DNA from: an uncultured Candidatus Saccharibacteria bacterium
GTDB taxonomy: Bacteria; Patescibacteriota; Doudnabacteria; UBA920
Assembly: GCA_964512925.1 (NCBI GenBank)
Contig: CAZEKH010000005.1
Span: 4,325 to 68,324, forward strand
Length of the DNA: 64,000 bases
Direction of reading: 5' to 3'
Below, in pieces: positions 8,491 through 51,384 of this stretch. The stretch's first letter is position 1. Each line of letters begins with the position of its first letter. The notes beneath the pieces were generated by a model. That model made no database searches. It was not told the origin of the DNA and saw nothing but the letters and a program-made list of their open reading frames with translations. A program made the position numbers and the translations under genes.

Positions 8491-8528
8491 CCCTCCCCAA
8501 GAGTTGGGGAGGGTCAAGGGAGAGGTTG
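8491..8528. repeat. GC-rich nested palindromic element (CCCTCCCCAAGAGTTGGGGAGGG + TCAAGGGAGAGGTTG)
   Basis: perfect 8-bp inner inverted repeat; same family as 5855, 31889, 32284, 59848. Confidence 0.7.
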
Positions 8529-47533: not shown

Positions 47534-48538
47534 ATGGACAGTGTTATTCCTGTTACACAAATACCACAAAATTCTACTAACGAATCTTCGAATTCGCTTG
47601 TTCCTTCAGGATACCCTGGAACTGCTACAACGCAGGATTTTTTAGCAAATGACAACCCGTTTCAGCCCCAAGTTCCTAATGCGCTTAAAGCGGAAGAAAA
47701 AAATCTTTCTGAAGACAGAGTTTCTTACGCTGACGCAAAAATCCAGGAAATTGAAGTTTCTAAAATAGTTGCCAACCCTTTCCAGCCAAGAAAAACTTTT
47801 AACCCGGAGGCTTTAAAGGAGTTGGCTGATTCTATCCGCGAACACGGGGTGATTCAGCCTTTGGTGGTTACCGAAACACCAAATGGTTATGAAATTGTGG
47901 TAGGGGAAAGGCGTTTTCGGGCAAGCCAGCTGGCTGGTCTTTTGAAAGTTCCAGCTATCGTAAAAAGCCAGATGGTGGACCAGACTAAGCTGGAAGTAGC
48001 GCTCATAGAAAACATCCAAAGGCAGGAGTTAAATCCTATAGAAGAAGCGATGGCCTATGACAGGCTAATGAAGACTTTTGACTTGACCCAAGACCAGGTG
48101 GCAAAGAAAGTTGGAAAGTCGAGGCCCGCAGTTGCCAACACTGTCAGGCTCTTAAACCTGCCTGCGGAAATCCAAAGAGCTTTGATAGAAGGCAAAATCA
48201 CCGAAGGGCACGCCAGGGCGCTTTTGGGGCTCATAGACAAAGACAAGATGCTTTTAATGTTTCAGAAGATCCAGGAAGAAGGTTTAAATGTGCGCCAGGT
48301 GGAGCTGAAAGTCCGCGAGCTTTCCATCCGCAGGCGGATGGACGCGGCAATGCCCGACCCAAAGCTGATGGCGCTTGAAACCGAGCTTCGCGGCCGTTTG
48401 GGCACCCAGGTGAAGATCCAAAAACAAGGCACCGGCGGCAGGATCACTATAGAATATTTTTCCGAAGACGAGCTAAATGAGATCATCCATAAAATGGCAG
48501 AAAATAAAAATCAGGATAGCCAATATTTAACGGTTTAA
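47534..48538 (+). CDS. parB: ParB/Spo0J chromosome partitioning protein with ~60-aa low-complexity N-terminal extension
   Basis: 'IVANPFQPRKTF', 'GVIQPLVVTE..YEIVVGERRFRA' ParB box, HTH 'QVAKKVGKSRPAVANTVRLL'. Confidence 0.85.
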   Translation: MDSVIPVTQIPQNSTNESSNSLVPSGYPGTATTQDFLANDNPFQPQVPNALKAEEKNLSEDRVSYADAKIQEIEVSKIVANPFQPRKTFNPEALKELADSIREHGVIQPLVVTETPNGYEIVVGERRFRASQLAGLLKVPAIVKSQMVDQTKLEVALIENIQRQELNPIEEAMAYDRLMKTFDLTQDQVAKKVGKSRPAVANTVRLLNLPAEIQRALIEGKITEGHARALLGLIDKDKMLLMFQKIQEEGLNVRQVELKVRELSIRRRMDAAMPDPKLMALETELRGRLGTQVKIQKQGTGGRITIEYFSEDELNEIIHKMAENKNQDSQYLTV

Positions 48539-48620
48539 AACATATATCCTTGGCCTTTGATTTTTAAGCTTTTTCAGATTTTACCTATTTTTTTAAGTGC
48601 TTTTTATCTCAGTCTCTGTT

Positions 48621-48644
48621 GTCATTCCCGCGAAAGCGGGAATC
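48621..48644. repeat. TCCCG/CGGGA hairpin element (GTCATTCCCGCGAAAGCGGGAATC)
   Basis: 8-bp perfect stem. Confidence 0.5.
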
Positions 48645-48704
48645 TAAGTTTGAGAGAATTTTCGGTACTAACAGATATAAACTGTTTTTCTGTGGAAAAC
48701 TGCA

Positions 48705-48733
48705 TTTGACAAGTTTTTGCTAGGGGTATAATA
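48705..48733 (+). promoter_or_regulatory. near-consensus sigma70 promoter (TTGACA-N15/17-TATAAT)
   Basis: gcatTTGACAagtttttgctaggggTATAATat. Confidence 0.55.
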
Positions 48734-48739
48734 TATATA

Positions 48740-48893
48740 AAATCTATGCAAAGAAATTTTTCCCACAACCTCATTATTTCTCTCCCGGTCGTCAAGACCT
48801 GGGTGTTTAAAATGCGGGGTAGTGTGGGAAAGAAAAGATAACAGTAGTATAAGTAAAGTTTCCACACCATACCCCGCAAAGAGCGGGTTTTTT
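48740..48893 (+). ncRNA. candidate ~150-nt small RNA between the consensus promoter and an intrinsic terminator (identity unknown)
   Basis: no credible ORF or SD; TTTCCCACAACC pairs GGTAGTGTGGGAAA with alternative partner TTTCCACACC; terminator CCCCGC-AAAGA-GCGGG + T7 at 48871..48893. Confidence 0.35.
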
Positions 48894-49010
48894 TCTGGGT
48901 AAGAGAAACTTAGAGAAATAGAATGTTAGAGAATTAGAGAGATAGAGTGTTAGAGAGGAAGAAAGTTAGCAAAGTAGATAAAATGAACTTTAAAAATTTT
49001 TTGTAGTTTT

Positions 49011-49128
49011 ACCCCCTCTCCCGTGTGGGAGAGGGTTGGGGTGAGGTTTCAGCGATGGTAATAAAACCAAGGTTTGTTATTATCAAACATTATTACCTCA
49101 CCCTAGCCCTCTCCGTGATCGGAGAGGG
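49011..49128. repeat. symmetric composite of two palindromic elements in opposite orientation around an AT-rich inner hairpin
   Basis: CCCTCTCCCGTGTGGGAGAGGG+TTGGGGTGAGGT ... ACCTCACCCTAGC+CCTCTCCGTGATCGGAGAGG. Confidence 0.65.
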
Positions 49129-49475
49129 AATCTGAAAAAGGCTTGAAATATTTATTATTTGTTCTTTAAAACTTAACACCAACCGCCCACAAAAGTTTTT
49201 CCAACAATTGATTTACTGATTATCAGATATTCTGATCAACTTGGAACTTCTTTTGTGTGCAGTCCGTTTGTTTTTATTTCTTTTCCTCCCGCTGGTCGGG
49301 ACGGACACAAGATGGAATCTCATTCCAAAGCACATAAAAACAAAAAAGGCACACGAAAGTTTGGGCAGATCTTGGCTTACCAGCCACTAAAAAATCCCGT
49401 TTTCAAAATTCGGGATTCTGCCCATAGCTATCCGGGCCGCGCAATTTGCTGGCCCATTCGTTCGAGGAGGAAAAA

Positions 49476-49679
49476 GTGGATAGACCAAAGGCATCCACGG
49501 GTGTTGGTCAAAAATTTTGTCAAAGTTGTCGTAGAACTTCAACTTTCATCACCGTGCAAGGTGACGGACATGAGATTGAAGTTTGTGAAAACTGTTTGAC
49601 AAACGGCGAACCAATATCTAGATTCAACGATCCGGATTATGCTTCGGATGTATCGGCCATGAGACTAATCATGGTCTAA
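49476..49679 (+). CDS. hypothetical small zinc-ribbon protein (GTG start after GGAGG SD)
   Basis: 67 aa; CQSC..(17)..CENC; locally GC-rich patch. Confidence 0.3.
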   Translation: MDRPKASTGVGQKFCQSCRRTSTFITVQGDGHEIEVCENCLTNGEPISRFNDPDYASDVSAMRLIMV

Positions 49680-49808
49680 CCAGCAACAGACTTAAAGAGC
49701 AAGTACTTGGGTAGTACCCTGCAATTATACCGCTCTTCAGGTCTTAACCCCGGGGTTCACCAGCTGACCACCATCGGCTAGTGGATCCCGGGCCACTCAA
49801 TTTTTTCT

Positions 49809-49846
49809 TCCTCTCCGTTATCGGAGAGGGTAGGGTGAGGTAACGG
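49809..49846. repeat. palindromic element (CCTCTCCGTTATCGGAGAGG + GTAGGGTGAGGTAACGG)
   Basis: same family, reverse orientation. Confidence 0.65.
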
Positions 49847-50013
49847 ACTCAAAATTCAAATCAGATTTATAAATCATTTAAACTTAAAATCCCCATTTTG
49901 GTTGGGAATGACGGAAAAAACATAAAAATTTCATACCCCCAAAAACCTATTAAATTTTTTGATAAGTTCTTGGGCGCATGAAAGCGCTCGATATTGGTTT
50001 TGTTGGAGGAACA

Positions 50014-50169
50014 ATGAGTGACACTAAACCGCAGGAGCCTGCAATTCGCGCCACAAATAAGGGTCTTAAAAAACCCCGACCACATTACGAGGTCGTAGTA
50101 CACCCGGAAACCCGGAGTGTGGATGTGATCCTAAAACCGTGCGAAGAATGCAAAACCTGCAAGACCTGA
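50014..50169 (+). CDS. hypothetical small Cys-rich protein (C-terminal CEECKTCKT)
   Basis: 51 aa from internal ATG with GGAGGAACAATG SD; followed by strong terminator. Confidence 0.35.
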   Translation: MSDTKPQEPAIRATNKGLKKPRPHYEVVVHPETRSVDVILKPCEECKTCKT

Positions 50170-50179
50170 CAGGTTTTTA

Positions 50180-50252
50180 GGCAGAGCCGCTACTAATTTA
50201 GTCTTTCTTAGACTTTTTTAGCAGAGGCTCTGCCACTATTTTTTTTATTTTT
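50180..50252 (+). terminator. long nested hairpin GGCAGAGCC..AGTCTTTCTTAGACT..GGCTCTGCC followed by T-rich run
   Basis: 9-bp outer stem + inner palindrome + TTTTTTTTATTTTT. Confidence 0.55.
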
Positions 50253-50262
50253 AAATTCGGGT

Positions 50263-50294
50263 GTCAAACTAGTCACATATGTGACTAGTTTGAC
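50263..50294. promoter_or_regulatory. perfect 32-bp palindrome GTCAAACTAGTCACATATGTGACTAGTTTGAC
   Basis: fully self-complementary; architecture shared with 46814..46849. Confidence 0.4.
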
Positions 50295-50308
50295 AGAGGT
50301 TGGGTTTT

Positions 50309-50330
50309 TGGTTGGGATGCTTTGGAATCC
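50309..50330 (-). pseudogene. degenerate copy of the tRNA-Pro 3' terminus
   Basis: TTTTTGGTTGGGATGCTTTGGAATCC vs tRNA TTTCTATGGTCGGGATGCTGGGAATCG. Confidence 0.4.
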
Positions 50331-50452
50331 TTTTCGCTGCGACTCGTAGCCGGGGCGTTATACTCAAGCATTCCAAATAGTCGTGCTTTTCTCATGCACT
50401 TCGATTCCAATAATTTTTATACCAAATAAAAAATACCGAAATTATTTCGGTA

Positions 50453-50473
50453 TTTTTTATTTGGTCGGGATGC
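50453..50473 (-). pseudogene. copy of the tRNA-Pro 3' terminus (acceptor 3' strand + CCA + flanking T-run), 20/21 identical
   Basis: TTTTTTATTTGGTCGGGATGC vs TTTTTTCTATGGTCGGGATGC at 50560..50580; then a non-tRNA hairpin CCCCGAC..GTCGGGG. Confidence 0.5.
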
Positions 50474-50568
50474 CCCGACGACCACTTCGTGATGTCGGGG
50501 TAAACTGGGTATTTCCAACAACCTATAACCATAGAAAAAAGCGCGACACAAGAACACACTTTTTTCTA

Positions 50569-50642
50569 TGGTCGGGATGCTGGGAATCGAACCCAGACTA
50601 CATCCACCCCATGGACGCGTACTACCACTATACTACATCCCG
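50569..50642 (-). tRNA. tRNA-Pro (anticodon GGG), CCA encoded
   Basis: reverse complement: CGGGATG acceptor, D arm GTAT-AGTGGTA-GTAC, anticodon arm CGTCC-ATGGGGT-GGATG, T arm CTGGG-TTCGATT-CCCAG, CATCCCG-A-CCA. Confidence 0.8.
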
Positions 50643-50720
50643 ATTTAAACCTTAGATTAACGATGACTTATAAACTATTTTGTTCAGGTGCTTGTCCGCC
50701 GAAGCCTCGGCGAAGGAGGA

Positions 50721-50744
50721 TACTACCACTATACTACATCCCGA
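50721..50744 (-). pseudogene. 24-nt exact copy of the tRNA-Pro 5' portion (acceptor + D arm), no T arm
   Basis: TACTACCACTATACTACATCCCGA identical to 50620..50643; then hairpin CGCCGAAGCCTCGGCG. Confidence 0.5.
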
Positions 50745-50793
50745 ATTGCAAAACAGATAATATTCTAACAAAACTTAAAGTTATGGGCAAATG

Positions 50794-50802
50794 TGGTATA
50801 AT
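50794..50802 (+). promoter_or_regulatory. extended -10 (TGGTATAAT) 6 nt before the maf ATG (leaderless-type)
   Basis: aaatgTGGTATAATttttct-ATG. Confidence 0.35.
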
Positions 50803-50808
50803 TTTTCT

Positions 50809-51384
50809 ATGCCAAAACAACTGGTTTTAGCTTCAGCCTCGCAGACCCGCAAAGAAATGCTTGATATTTTGGGTCTAAAATATAAAGTCATCCCCAGCAA
50901 GTTTGAGGAGGATTTGTCTTTAAAAATGCCGGCAGAACAGCTGGCAGTATTTTTAGCTAAAGGCAAGGCTATGGAAGTAGCTTATAGGGTGAAAAATGCG
51001 GTAGTAGTTGGAGCGGATACTTTGGCATCGTTTCGGGGAAAAGTTTTAGGCAAGCCCCACACGCCTAAAAAAGCCTTTGAAATGCTAAAAATGCTTTCAG
51101 GGCAAACTCATTTTGCCATAACAGGGCTTTGCCTAGTTGATACAGAAAATAAAAAAACATTTGCCAAAGCTTATACAGTAAAAGTTACTTTTAGGGAGTT
51201 AAGCGACAGCGAGATAAAAAGTTATATAAAAACCAAACAGCCTCTGGACAAAGCCGGAGCTTATGAGATCCGCGGTCGGGGCGCTGCATTTGTCCAAAGG
51301 TTGGAAGGGGAATACACCACAGCTGCGGGCATGCCTTTGTCCGCTTTTTGCGAAGAAGTAAAAAAGTTTGGGGTAAAACCATAG
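50809..51384 (+). CDS. maf: Maf-like nucleoside-triphosphate pyrophosphatase (start at second Met of ORF 50791..51384)
   Basis: 'LVLASASQTRKEML', 'VVGADTL', Maf fold motifs. Confidence 0.8.
   Translation: MPKQLVLASASQTRKEMLDILGLKYKVIPSKFEEDLSLKMPAEQLAVFLAKGKAMEVAYRVKNAVVVGADTLASFRGKVLGKPHTPKKAFEMLKMLSGQTHFAITGLCLVDTENKKTFAKAYTVKVTFRELSDSEIKSYIKTKQPLDKAGAYEIRGRGAAFVQRLEGEYTTAAGMPLSAFCEEVKKFGVKP

What the first reader, a model, noticed from the sequence alone, without database searches (positions are those of the whole stretch)
50300..50745. tRNA-Pro(GGG) surrounded by serial partial copies of both its ends
Downstream of the minus-strand tRNA 3' end there are two further copies of T-run + TGGTYGGGATGC, at ~50453 (20/21 identical) and a more decayed one at ~50309. 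Upstream, a 24-nt exact copy of the 5' acceptor/D-arm (50721..50744) is fused to an unrelated hairpin. This pattern is typical of repeated integration/excision at a tRNA attachment site.
Basis: partly seen in the sequence, partly recalled or inferred. Interest (0 to 1): 0.7.

Follow-up and report, generated by a model that had tools for sequence, protein, structure and literature searches.

The report
Scarred tRNA-Pro gene, nuclease-cassette debris
An intact proline tRNA gene sits among leftover pieces of older copies of itself, most likely debris of small selfish nuclease cassettes and tRNA-in-tRNA insertions that repeatedly hit tRNA genes in these tiny bacteria, not scars of an integrating virus or island.

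Summary
tRNA-Pro(GGG) lies at 50569-50642 (-). Upstream is an exact 24-nt copy of its 5' end, fused to a GC hairpin. Downstream are two significant copies of its 3' end (19/21, and 18/20 with one gap), each with ACCA and an A-tract.

The integrase reading is not supported. No recombinase lies within about 12 kb, the gaps are 107 and 153 nt, and a 5' copy does not fit.

I collected 68 distinct Patescibacteria tRNA-Pro(GGG) loci. About 17 show the same polarity: 5' fragments only upstream, 3' fragments only downstream, all within 350 nt. In the fresher cases a whole tRNA-Pro, with a paired leader and trailer, sits inside another tRNA-Pro, often between positions 35 and 36. The split halves still complement each other.

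In relatives, about 90-aa GIY-YIG nuclease genes lie exactly between a tRNA 5' fragment plus GC hairpins and the complete tRNA (Pro, Gln, Leu, Ser, Ala). One is tandemly amplified in a population variant. The window's pieces are homologous to such outer halves but carry no nuclease gene.

Best reading: decayed scars of nuclease-driven breakage, duplication and replacement of the tRNA gene. The closest known analogue is phage T4/T6 SegB. The mechanism is inferred, not shown.

The parts
50762..50790 (-). Promoter-like site (TTGCCC, 17-nt spacer, TG-extended TAGAAT) just upstream of the 5' partial copy. It is the likely start of the transcript that carries the 5' copy, the hairpin and the tRNA.
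   Evidence: a consensus scan only. No second promoter-like site was reported between the 5' copy and the tRNA.
50721..50747 (-). 5' partial copy (F5): tRNA nucleotides 1-23 (acceptor 5' strand and D arm) plus 4 nt of 5' flank.
   Evidence: 24/24 exact, with 0 expected by chance. 26/27 over the extended repeat. nhmmer hit to tRNA-Pro profile positions 1-23, E=0.001.
50689..50720 (-). GC hairpin (stem 50695-50714) inserted after the D-stem GTA, followed by remnants of an older anticodon stem. Together with F5 this forms the 5' half of a dead outer tRNA-Pro.
   Evidence: Fold. 78% identity over 55 nt to the outer 5' half of L033. The same insert position is seen in L027, L033 and L017. Related double hairpins form the leader of GIY-YIG cassettes in L023, L090 and L097 and occur in the outer halves of L077 and L020.
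50569..50642 (-). Complete tRNA-Pro(GGG) gene with the CCA end encoded. It is identical to the inner tRNA of the nested loci L024, L027, L028, L033 and L082.
50528..50572 (.). Palindrome 1 (14+14 nt arms, 17-nt loop) that begins at the tRNA's own ACCA. It looks like a bidirectional terminator.
   Evidence: inverted repeat I6; fold. 80% identity over 51 nt to the terminator behind the displaced 3' fragment of L034.
50462..50528 (-). 3' partial copy 1 (D2). It consists of a T-loop/T-stem remnant (..ACCCAG), an inserted TTTA + CCCCGAC..GTCGGGG hairpin (50473-50500), and then the acceptor 3' strand with ACCA (50462-50473, exact) and an A-tract.
   Evidence: The same block occurs in L028, L024 and L010, each time just behind another tRNA 3' end. 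91% identity over 35 nt to L028.
50421..50465 (.). Palindrome 2 (perfect 22+22 nt arms, 1-nt loop) that begins at the ACCA of copy D2. It looks like a second terminator.
   Evidence: inverted repeat I1; fold.
50309..50377 (-). 3' partial copy 2 (D3). The core at 50309-50330 is a decayed T-loop end plus acceptor 3' strand plus ACCA. It is preceded on the minus strand by an imperfect hairpin (50321-50377).
   Evidence: 18/20 matched positions plus 1 gap against the tRNA 3' end; 0.05% of random windows score as high. Inverted repeat I9; fold.

Best explanation
The tRNA-Pro(GGG) gene is intact and is probably the only working part. The pieces around it are the remains of older tRNA-Pro copies that were broken and replaced in place.

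Anatomy:
- The upstream piece is the 5' half of a dead 'outer' copy. It keeps the old promoter, so the present tRNA is probably transcribed through it and released by RNase P.
- The downstream pieces are displaced 3' ends. Each still carries its ACCA, its A-tract and a terminator palindrome.

Process (inferred). In this bacterial group, small GIY-YIG nuclease cassettes live inside tRNA genes. They bring, or induce duplication of, the tRNA part they disrupt. Breaks and repair then produce partial duplications, tandem amplification and whole tRNA genes nested inside older ones. The nuclease gene and most inserted DNA are later deleted, which leaves short fragments and GC hairpin footprints. The window shows this end state.

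Shown versus inferred. Shown: the anatomy, the polarity, homology to fresher nested loci, and nuclease genes sitting in the same gaps in relatives. Inferred: that a nuclease caused the events in this genome, and that the fragments are now functionless.
For: Polarity and closeness of fragments. In 68 distinct tRNA-Pro(GGG) loci, about 17 have partial tRNA-Pro hits. 5' fragments (profile positions 1 to 23-31) occur only upstream. 3' fragments (positions 24/34/42 to 71) occur only downstream. All are on the same strand and within 350 nt.

The outer halves form one split gene:
- Perfectly complementary outer acceptor 7-mers occur in 10 of 59 loci. The control averaged 2.5, with a maximum of 6 in 200 trials.
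- The joined halves of L082 and L028 are called a tRNA by ARAGORN.

Filled versus empty site. L078 has an intact tRNA-Pro(CGG). L067, whose flanks are 84-87% identical, has that gene split at 35/36 by a different tRNA-Pro(CGG). In L077 and L043, removing the insert restores the loops ATGG|GGT and CTCG|GGT.

Homology of the window's pieces:
- F5 plus hairpin to L033: 78% over 55 nt.
- D2 to L028: 91% over 35 nt.
- Terminator to L034: 80% over 51 nt.
- D2 also occurs in L024 and L010.

Nuclease link:
- GIY-YIG ORFs (Pfam E about 1e-17) lie between a tRNA 5' fragment plus GC hairpins and the full tRNA. This is seen in L023 and L090 (Pro), L097 (Gln), L014 (Leu), L039 and L077 (Ser) and L067 (Ala).
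- A degraded copy lies between the full tRNA and a displaced 3' fragment in L034.
- The unit is tandemly duplicated in L098 compared with L097.
- The cassette's double hairpin recurs, without the ORF, inside the outer halves of L077 and L020.

Specificity: the other three tRNAs in the window have no copies.

Precedent: the GIY-YIG nuclease SegB cuts inside tRNA genes and drives homing and segmental amplification of tRNA regions (PMC2330249, PMC13096335).
Against: - The window has no GIY-YIG gene or detectable remnant (tblastn best E=7.5, far from the tRNA).
- Its hairpin is of the 'T-CC..GGA-C' type, shared with L027, L033 and L017. That type is linked to the cassettes only by position and analogy.
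- It lacks the leader-trailer helix of the fresh nests (duplex -15 kcal/mol, z=-0.1).
- The ~90-aa proteins are a bare catalytic domain, and neither cleavage nor homing has been shown for them.
- Some fragment pieces are better conserved between genomes than neutral relics should be, given that parB DNA is only about 69% identical. This suggests either selection on the transcript or recent horizontal spread.
- The nearest sequenced relative has only 53% Maf identity, so no recent before-and-after comparison exists for this lineage.
Confidence: 0.6

Rival explanations
1. Integrase att-site scars. Phages or islands integrated repeatedly into the 3' end of the tRNA gene. Each time the 3' end was duplicated, and the elements were later deleted.
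For: Direct repeats of the tRNA 3' end downstream decay with distance from the gene. The 2.2 kb between the tRNA and parB is non-coding or carries only tiny ORFs, and it is not conserved in relatives.
Against: - No integrase or recombinase lies within about 12 kb.
- The gaps are 107 and 153 nt here, and under 350 nt in all ~17 related loci with fragments.
- The 5' copy and the complementary split halves are not products of 3'-end att duplication.
- Nothing matched in IMG/VR or in phage records.
Confidence: 0.08
2. Plain local duplication and decay. The tRNA-plus-terminator unit was duplicated in tandem by slippage or unequal recombination. The redundant copies then eroded by deletion, and gene conversion kept the ends identical. 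No selfish element was involved.
For: The spacings of 101-153 nt are typical of tandem tRNA arrays. Each 3' copy keeps its own terminator arm. The 24-nt 5' copy is identical to the gene, although its homologues in other genomes differ from theirs, which suggests gene conversion.
Against: - It does not explain why fragments obey a strict 5'-upstream and 3'-downstream polarity with complementary outer halves that differ from the inner gene.
- It does not explain the recurrent breakpoints at about 22-24, 35/36 and 42/43.
- It does not explain why nuclease genes sit in the gaps.
- The copies show no residual full-length tRNA similarity.
Confidence: 0.15
3. A functional composite RNA. The outer pieces are kept because the whole transcript folds into a tRNA-like scaffold or leader/trailer that helps processing or expression of the inner tRNA. 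In fresh nests the outer might even be a tRNA whose 'intron' is another tRNA.
For: - 12-13 of 63 loci have strong leader-trailer helices (dG -34 to -64) whose sequences differ between loci, with some compensatory changes such as TGCCC/GGGCA to TGTTTT/AAAACA.
- In nests such as L028 and L082 only a ~35-nt paired leader separates the outer 5' half from the inner tRNA, so the nest is probably one transcription unit.
- Outer arms are pristine in L082 and L028.
- Short pieces are conserved across distant genomes.
Against: - The window has no such helix.
- Many outer halves have ruined T loops or D arms, or hairpin insertions (L033, L024, L027, L077, L067).
- In the L028 type, removing the insert leaves an 8-nt loop.
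- No ribozyme or other known RNA family was detected.
- The inverted-repeat arms in L033 and L024 are decaying.
Confidence: 0.12

Closest known systems
Phage T4/T6 SegB, a free-standing GIY-YIG homing endonuclease in the tRNA gene cluster (PMC2330249; PMC13096335)
   Same: A GIY-YIG nuclease gene is embedded among tRNA genes. SegB cuts inside tRNA genes at the T-loop motif, homes together with neighbouring tRNA genes, and drives recombination-dependent segmental amplification that leaves truncated copies. SegB homologues are enriched next to tRNAs. The relatives examined here show nuclease genes inside partial tRNA duplications and a tandem copy-number variant.
   Different: The cases here are chromosomal, in Patescibacteria. 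The proteins are about 90 aa, a catalytic domain only, with no DNA-binding domain. The gene sits inside a single tRNA gene, with a 5' fragment and a conserved double-hairpin leader. No activity has been shown. The window itself has lost the nuclease gene, or never had one.
tRNA-targeting integrative elements (phage, ICE or genomic-island attL/attR repeats)
   Same: Partial tRNA copies occur as direct repeats. The incoming DNA restores the gene and pushes the old end away.
   Different: There is no integrase, the gaps are about 100-150 nt rather than kilobases, 5' fragments occur as well, and whole tRNA genes are nested within split ones.
Disrupted archaeal tRNA genes: split or intron-containing tRNAs, and the Caldiarchaeum tRNA-Thr 5' fragment next to a recombinase element (PMC3293823)
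   Same: A 5' tRNA fragment lies upstream of an intact copy and is attributed to a mobile element. Halves of a tRNA gene are separated by inserted DNA.
   Different: These are bacteria. No bulge-helix-bulge motif is visible and no splicing endonuclease is known. The insert carries a complete second tRNA, and there is no recombinase.
Group I introns at position 35/36 of Patescibacteria tRNA genes (PMC13011429)
   Same: The phylum is the same, and so is the unusual insertion point, between anticodon nucleotides 35 and 36, in L077, L043 and L067.
   Different: The inserts are only about 100-130 nt, contain a tRNA rather than a ribozyme core, and give no group I intron hit in Rfam.

Membership tests
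Integrase att-site duplication at a tRNA gene | A tyrosine or serine recombinase gene next to the tRNA or inside the repeat-bounded segment | tested here: not met
   Pfam on ORFs from 38164 to 62026 finds only housekeeping families. The small ORFs have no PHROG hit.
Integrase att-site duplication at a tRNA gene | Direct repeats of the tRNA 3' part downstream of the gene | tested here: met
   Copies at 50453-50473 and 50309-50330.
Integrase att-site duplication at a tRNA gene | A kilobase-scale element between the repeats | tested here: not met
   The spacings are 107 and 153 nt here, and under 350 nt in all related loci.
Nested or split tRNA-Pro locus of Patescibacteria (as defined here) | A complete tRNA flanked on the same strand by a 5' fragment upstream and a 3' fragment downstream | tested here: met
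Nested or split tRNA-Pro locus of Patescibacteria (as defined here) | Outer acceptor strands complementary to each other | tested here: met
   CGGGATG at -101 and CATCCCG+A at +100. In the window they also equal the inner gene, so this is less diagnostic than in L033 or L082.
Nested or split tRNA-Pro locus of Patescibacteria (as defined here) | Outer pieces homologous to those of other nested loci | tested here: met
   Similarity to L033, L028, L034, L024 and L010.
Nested or split tRNA-Pro locus of Patescibacteria (as defined here) | A long leader-trailer helix around the inner tRNA | tested here: not met
   Window duplex -15.3 kcal/mol, z=-0.1, against -34 to -64 in 12-13 other loci.
tRNA-embedded GIY-YIG cassette (SegB-like) | A GIY-YIG ORF between the tRNA fragment and the complete tRNA | tested here: not met
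   tblastn with the L023 protein finds nothing near the tRNA in the window. The ORF is present in L023, L090, L097, L014, L039, L077 and L067.
tRNA-embedded GIY-YIG cassette (SegB-like) | A 5' tRNA fragment that ends in the D-stem 3' strand and is followed by GC hairpin(s) | tested here: met
   The window has ..GGTAGTA|T-hairpin-C. Compare L023, L097 and L090 (..GTAGT|double hairpin) and L077 and L020. The hairpin sequence type differs.
tRNA-embedded GIY-YIG cassette (SegB-like) | Site-specific cleavage of the intact tRNA gene and homing | not testable with these tools
   Requires biochemistry or crosses. The only support is copy-number polymorphism between L097 and L098.
Group I intron in a tRNA gene | A ribozyme core detectable by a covariance model | tested here: not met
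   No RF00028 or other intron hit in the window at E<=10, nor in 14 nested loci at gathering score.
Tandem tRNA gene array with pseudogenes | Copies retain full-length tRNA similarity | tested here: not met
   Only one tRNA hit in 48500-50850, even at E<=10. nhmmer finds only the 23-nt 5' piece.

The most novel reading that the evidence does not exclude
Patescibacteria may carry a previously undescribed family of selfish elements that live inside tRNA genes. It would have two forms:
- About 90-aa GIY-YIG nuclease genes with a conserved double-hairpin leader, which split a tRNA gene and supply a replacement copy of the disrupted part.
- 'tRNA-within-tRNA' nests, in which a whole tRNA with a paired leader and trailer is inserted at 35/36 of another.

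These elements would replace the gene instead of splicing out of it. In the freshest nests (L082, L028) the outer tRNA may even still be used, which would make the inner tRNA an intron removed by tRNA-processing enzymes.
Probability: 0.35. Interest if true: 0.8.

Novelty: new variant of a known kind. Interest (0 to 1): 0.6.

Why it matters
If this reading is right, several things follow:
- tRNA genes in these ultra-small genomes are a battleground for tiny nuclease cassettes. Such cassettes solve the problem of sitting in an essential gene by carrying a spare copy rather than by self-splicing.
- That would extend SegB-type biology, so far known from T-even phages, to bacterial chromosomes.
- It would explain tRNA fragments and odd hairpin-interrupted pseudo-tRNAs in genomes assembled from metagenomes.
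- It would warn annotators that such fragments do not mark islands or prophages.
- The nested loci also offer a natural test of whether bacteria can use split or tRNA-interrupted tRNAs.

Tried and rejected
- Phage similarity for 48540-50790: only generic tRNA hits.
- IMG/VR scans with the tRNA core pattern and with the D2 pattern: 0 hits.
- Rfam at E<=10 over the region, and at gathering score over 14 nested loci: only tRNAs, no intron, tmRNA or sRNA family.
- Pfam and PHROGs on the small ORFs of the 2.2-kb gap: nothing except a sub-threshold zinc-finger hit.
- Integrase search within about 12 kb: none.
- tblastn for GIY-YIG in the window: none.
- ARAGORN in intron mode did not call the outer tRNAs. 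Manual joining did.
- Leader-trailer helix in the window: absent.
- Further 3' copies at 49896 and 49293: not significant.
- Close relatives of this genome: none. The best Maf homologue is 53% identical, so junctions could only be compared with distant genomes.
- tmRNA-like or permuted tRNA reading of the fold: rejected. There is no G3:U70 pair, no ARAGORN tmRNA call, and the alternative pairing simply reflects the duplicated acceptor strand.
- Literature searches for nested tRNA genes in bacteria found no description.

Full report
**What is in the window.** ARAGORN and Rfam find one tRNA-Pro(GGG) at 50569-50642 on the minus strand, with CCA encoded. Almost all neighbouring genes run on the plus strand and are housekeeping:
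- Upstream: LeuRS, MFS, SHMT, BacA, PAP2, tRNA-Leu and ParB.
- Downstream: Maf, acyltransferase, GNAT, FtsX/ABC, S7 and EF-G.

The tRNA lies at the right end of the largest non-coding stretch of the window, 48540-50790. An independent Logan contig is identical from 50278 onwards. The nearest Maf homologue in 5.8 billion proteins is only 53% identical, so this lineage has no close sequenced relative.

- 5' copy: 50721-50744 repeats 50620-50643 exactly. It covers 23 tRNA nucleotides plus 1 flank nucleotide, and 0 matches are expected by chance. The repeat is 26/27 when extended. An 8-bp GC hairpin follows.
- 3' copy D2: 50453-50473 matches the tRNA 3' end plus flank at 19/21, and the 12 tRNA nucleotides are exact.
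- 3' copy D3: 50309-50329 matches at 18/20 with one gap and extends into the T loop.
- Significance: both downstream copies are significant for their position (0 of about 20,000 random windows, and 0.05% of them).
- Rejected candidates: the sites at 49896 and 49293 are not significant.
- Control: the other three tRNAs of the window have no copies.

That sequence is the first arm of palindromic terminators which begin at ACCA: 50528-50572 behind the gene and 50421-50465 behind D2. Each 3' copy therefore kept its own terminator.

**Relatives.** L002 has the same synteny (SHMT, BacA, tRNA-Leu, ParB ... Maf; Maf 50% identical). It also has tRNA-Pro(GGG) with a 5' partial copy plus hairpin upstream and 3' partial copies downstream, and these follow its own acceptor sequence. 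Scanning species-representative genomes and JGI metagenomes with the tRNA core pattern gave 85 loci, of which 68 are distinct.

A tRNA-Pro profile search shows partial hits in about 17 of the 68. They obey a strict rule: 5' fragments only upstream, 3' fragments only downstream, same strand, all within 350 nt. Ten of 59 loci have perfectly complementary outer acceptor strands, against a control mean of 2.5 and a maximum of 6. These strands often differ from the inner gene: outer CGGGCTG/CAGCCCG around inner CGGGATG. Joined outer halves of L082 and L028 are called a tRNA by ARAGORN. The outer pieces are therefore one tRNA gene split by an insert that carries another complete tRNA-Pro.

**Nest anatomy.**
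- In 12-13 of 63 loci the inner tRNA's leader and trailer form a long helix.
- In L077 (two nests: GGG inside GGG, and CGG inside CGG) and in L043, removing the insert restores the 7-nt anticodon loop, which places the insertion between positions 35 and 36.
- L078 has an intact tRNA-Pro(CGG). In L067, whose flanks are 84-87% identical, the orthologous gene is split at 35/36 by a different tRNA-Pro(CGG) and has lost part of its body. This is a filled-versus-empty pair. It shows that the nests arise by DNA insertion and that the outer copy can be dead.
- Many outer halves have ruined T loops or carry GC hairpin insertions.
- No ribozyme or other RNA family is detected.

**The nuclease link.** In L023 a GIY-YIG ORF (Pfam E=1.8e-17) fills the gap between a 22-nt 5' fragment plus two GC hairpins and the full tRNA-Pro. 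All six GIY-YIG genes in the fetched loci lie no more than 46 nt upstream of a same-strand tRNA. Five have a 5' fragment of that same tRNA type (Pro, Leu, Ser, Ser, Ala) in front of them. L034 has a degraded copy between the full tRNA and a displaced 3' fragment.

Homologues found by protein search show the same layout:
- L090: ParB ... 5' fragment, double hairpin, GIY-YIG, tRNA-Pro.
- L097: two serial 5' fragments, the same double hairpin, GIY-YIG, tRNA-Gln, then an exact 14-nt 3' fragment 163 nt downstream.
- L098: the unit of fragment, hairpins and ORF is tandemly duplicated.

The double hairpin is nearly identical between the Pro and Gln cassettes. It also recurs, without the ORF, inside the outer halves of L077 and L020. 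Hairpin-interrupted outer halves therefore look like cassette footprints.

**Placing the window.**
- Its 5' copy plus hairpin is 78% identical over 55 nt to the outer 5' half of L033, and its insert position matches L027, L033 and L017.
- D2 is a T-loop remnant, an inserted hairpin and the acceptor strand. It is shared with L028, L024 and L010.
- The terminator matches the one behind L034's displaced fragment.
- The inner tRNA is identical to that of L024, L027, L028, L033 and L082.
- The window has no leader-trailer helix and no GIY-YIG gene.

I read it as an old, eroded member of this class. It has a live tRNA transcribed from the promoter-like site upstream of the dead 5' half, with two displaced 3' ends behind it.

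**Comparison with what is known.** The closest system is phage SegB. It is a GIY-YIG homing endonuclease inside the T4/T6 tRNA cluster. It cuts tRNA genes at the T-loop motif, homes with neighbouring tRNAs, and drives recombination-dependent segmental amplification. Integrase att duplication shares only the downstream 3' repeats. Archaeal split tRNAs and the Caldiarchaeum 5' fragment are analogues in outcome, not in mechanism. Group I introns share the 35/36 site but not the content. I found no description of tRNA-in-tRNA nests or tRNA-embedded mini GIY-YIG cassettes in bacteria.

**What remains open.**
- Nuclease activity and causation in this genome are inferred.
- Some fragment pieces are more conserved than neutral DNA should be.
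- The helices show some compensatory change.

A function of the composite transcript, or recent horizontal spread, therefore cannot be excluded.

Noticed in passing
window 48706-48895: A promoter-like site is followed by a 31-codon ORF (48746-48841, MQRNFSHNLIISLPVVKTWVFKMRGSVGKKR) and then a long hairpin and terminator. L002:3200-3285 has a counterpart (MQKFFSPINVSILPVFVKTVVWIRQRG) with the conserved DNA core CTCCCGGTC..GTCAAGACC. This may be a conserved small protein or sRNA downstream of parB.
   Followed up: partly
window 50262-50295: A perfect 34-nt palindrome with no loop (TGTCAAACTAGTCACAT|ATGTGACTAGTTTGACA). The independent Logan contig ends exactly at its centre. It contains TTGACA boxes on both strands, so it could be an operator or a divergent promoter.
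   Followed up: no
window ~49013-49050, 49098-49132, 49808-49845: Three copies of a GC-rich hairpin motif (CCTCTCC..GGAGAGGG followed by TWGGGTGAGG). Two of them are in inverted orientation about 50 nt apart, which looks like a small repeat family. A pattern search with a fixed 7-nt loop did not recover these three copies; it found only similar CTCCCC..GGGGAGGG hairpins at 8491 and 59862.
   Followed up: partly
window 49446-49679 and 49978-50169: Two mini-ORFs with CxxC...CxxC zinc-ribbon signatures lie in the otherwise non-coding gap. The first is weakly similar to L002:3945-4145 (E=3e-4 pairwise). Neither has a Pfam or PHROG family.
   Followed up: partly
L009, L026, L029, L055 versus window, L014, L034, L007, L033, L025, L027: The orientation of the tRNA-Pro module relative to parB flips between genomes. 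In some it lies directly after parB on the same strand. In others it is convergent and 1-2.2 kb away, and the intervening DNA is not conserved.
   Followed up: partly
L077 (oriented +93..+202 and +804..+913): Two nests in one genome, Pro-GGG inside Pro-GGG and Pro-CGG inside Pro-CGG, share an outer 3' half that is 94% identical over 111 nt. The scaffold itself has therefore been copied.
   Followed up: partly
L097 versus L098 (1113-1817): The same flanks carry either one or two tandem units of [tRNA-Gln 5' fragment + double hairpin + GIY-YIG ORF]. Each variant was seen in several samples, so this is a natural copy-number polymorphism.
   Followed up: yes
outer halves of L020, L037, L043, L077, L010, L028, L024; window 50473-50504: GC hairpins of the form CCCCG..CGGGG followed by TAAA, or its reverse complement TTTA+CCCCG..CGGGG, are inserted at many positions of dead tRNA halves (10/11, 43/44, T loop, 65/66). 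They could be collapsed older nests or a small palindromic element family.
   Followed up: partly
L028, L033, L024, L027, L082, L053 junctions: These loci share a conserved junction, A[CTTG-helix..tRNA..helix-TGAA]GGT. Removing the insert leaves an 8-nt loop, and CTT can pair with AAG to extend the helix. Its meaning is unknown.
   Followed up: partly
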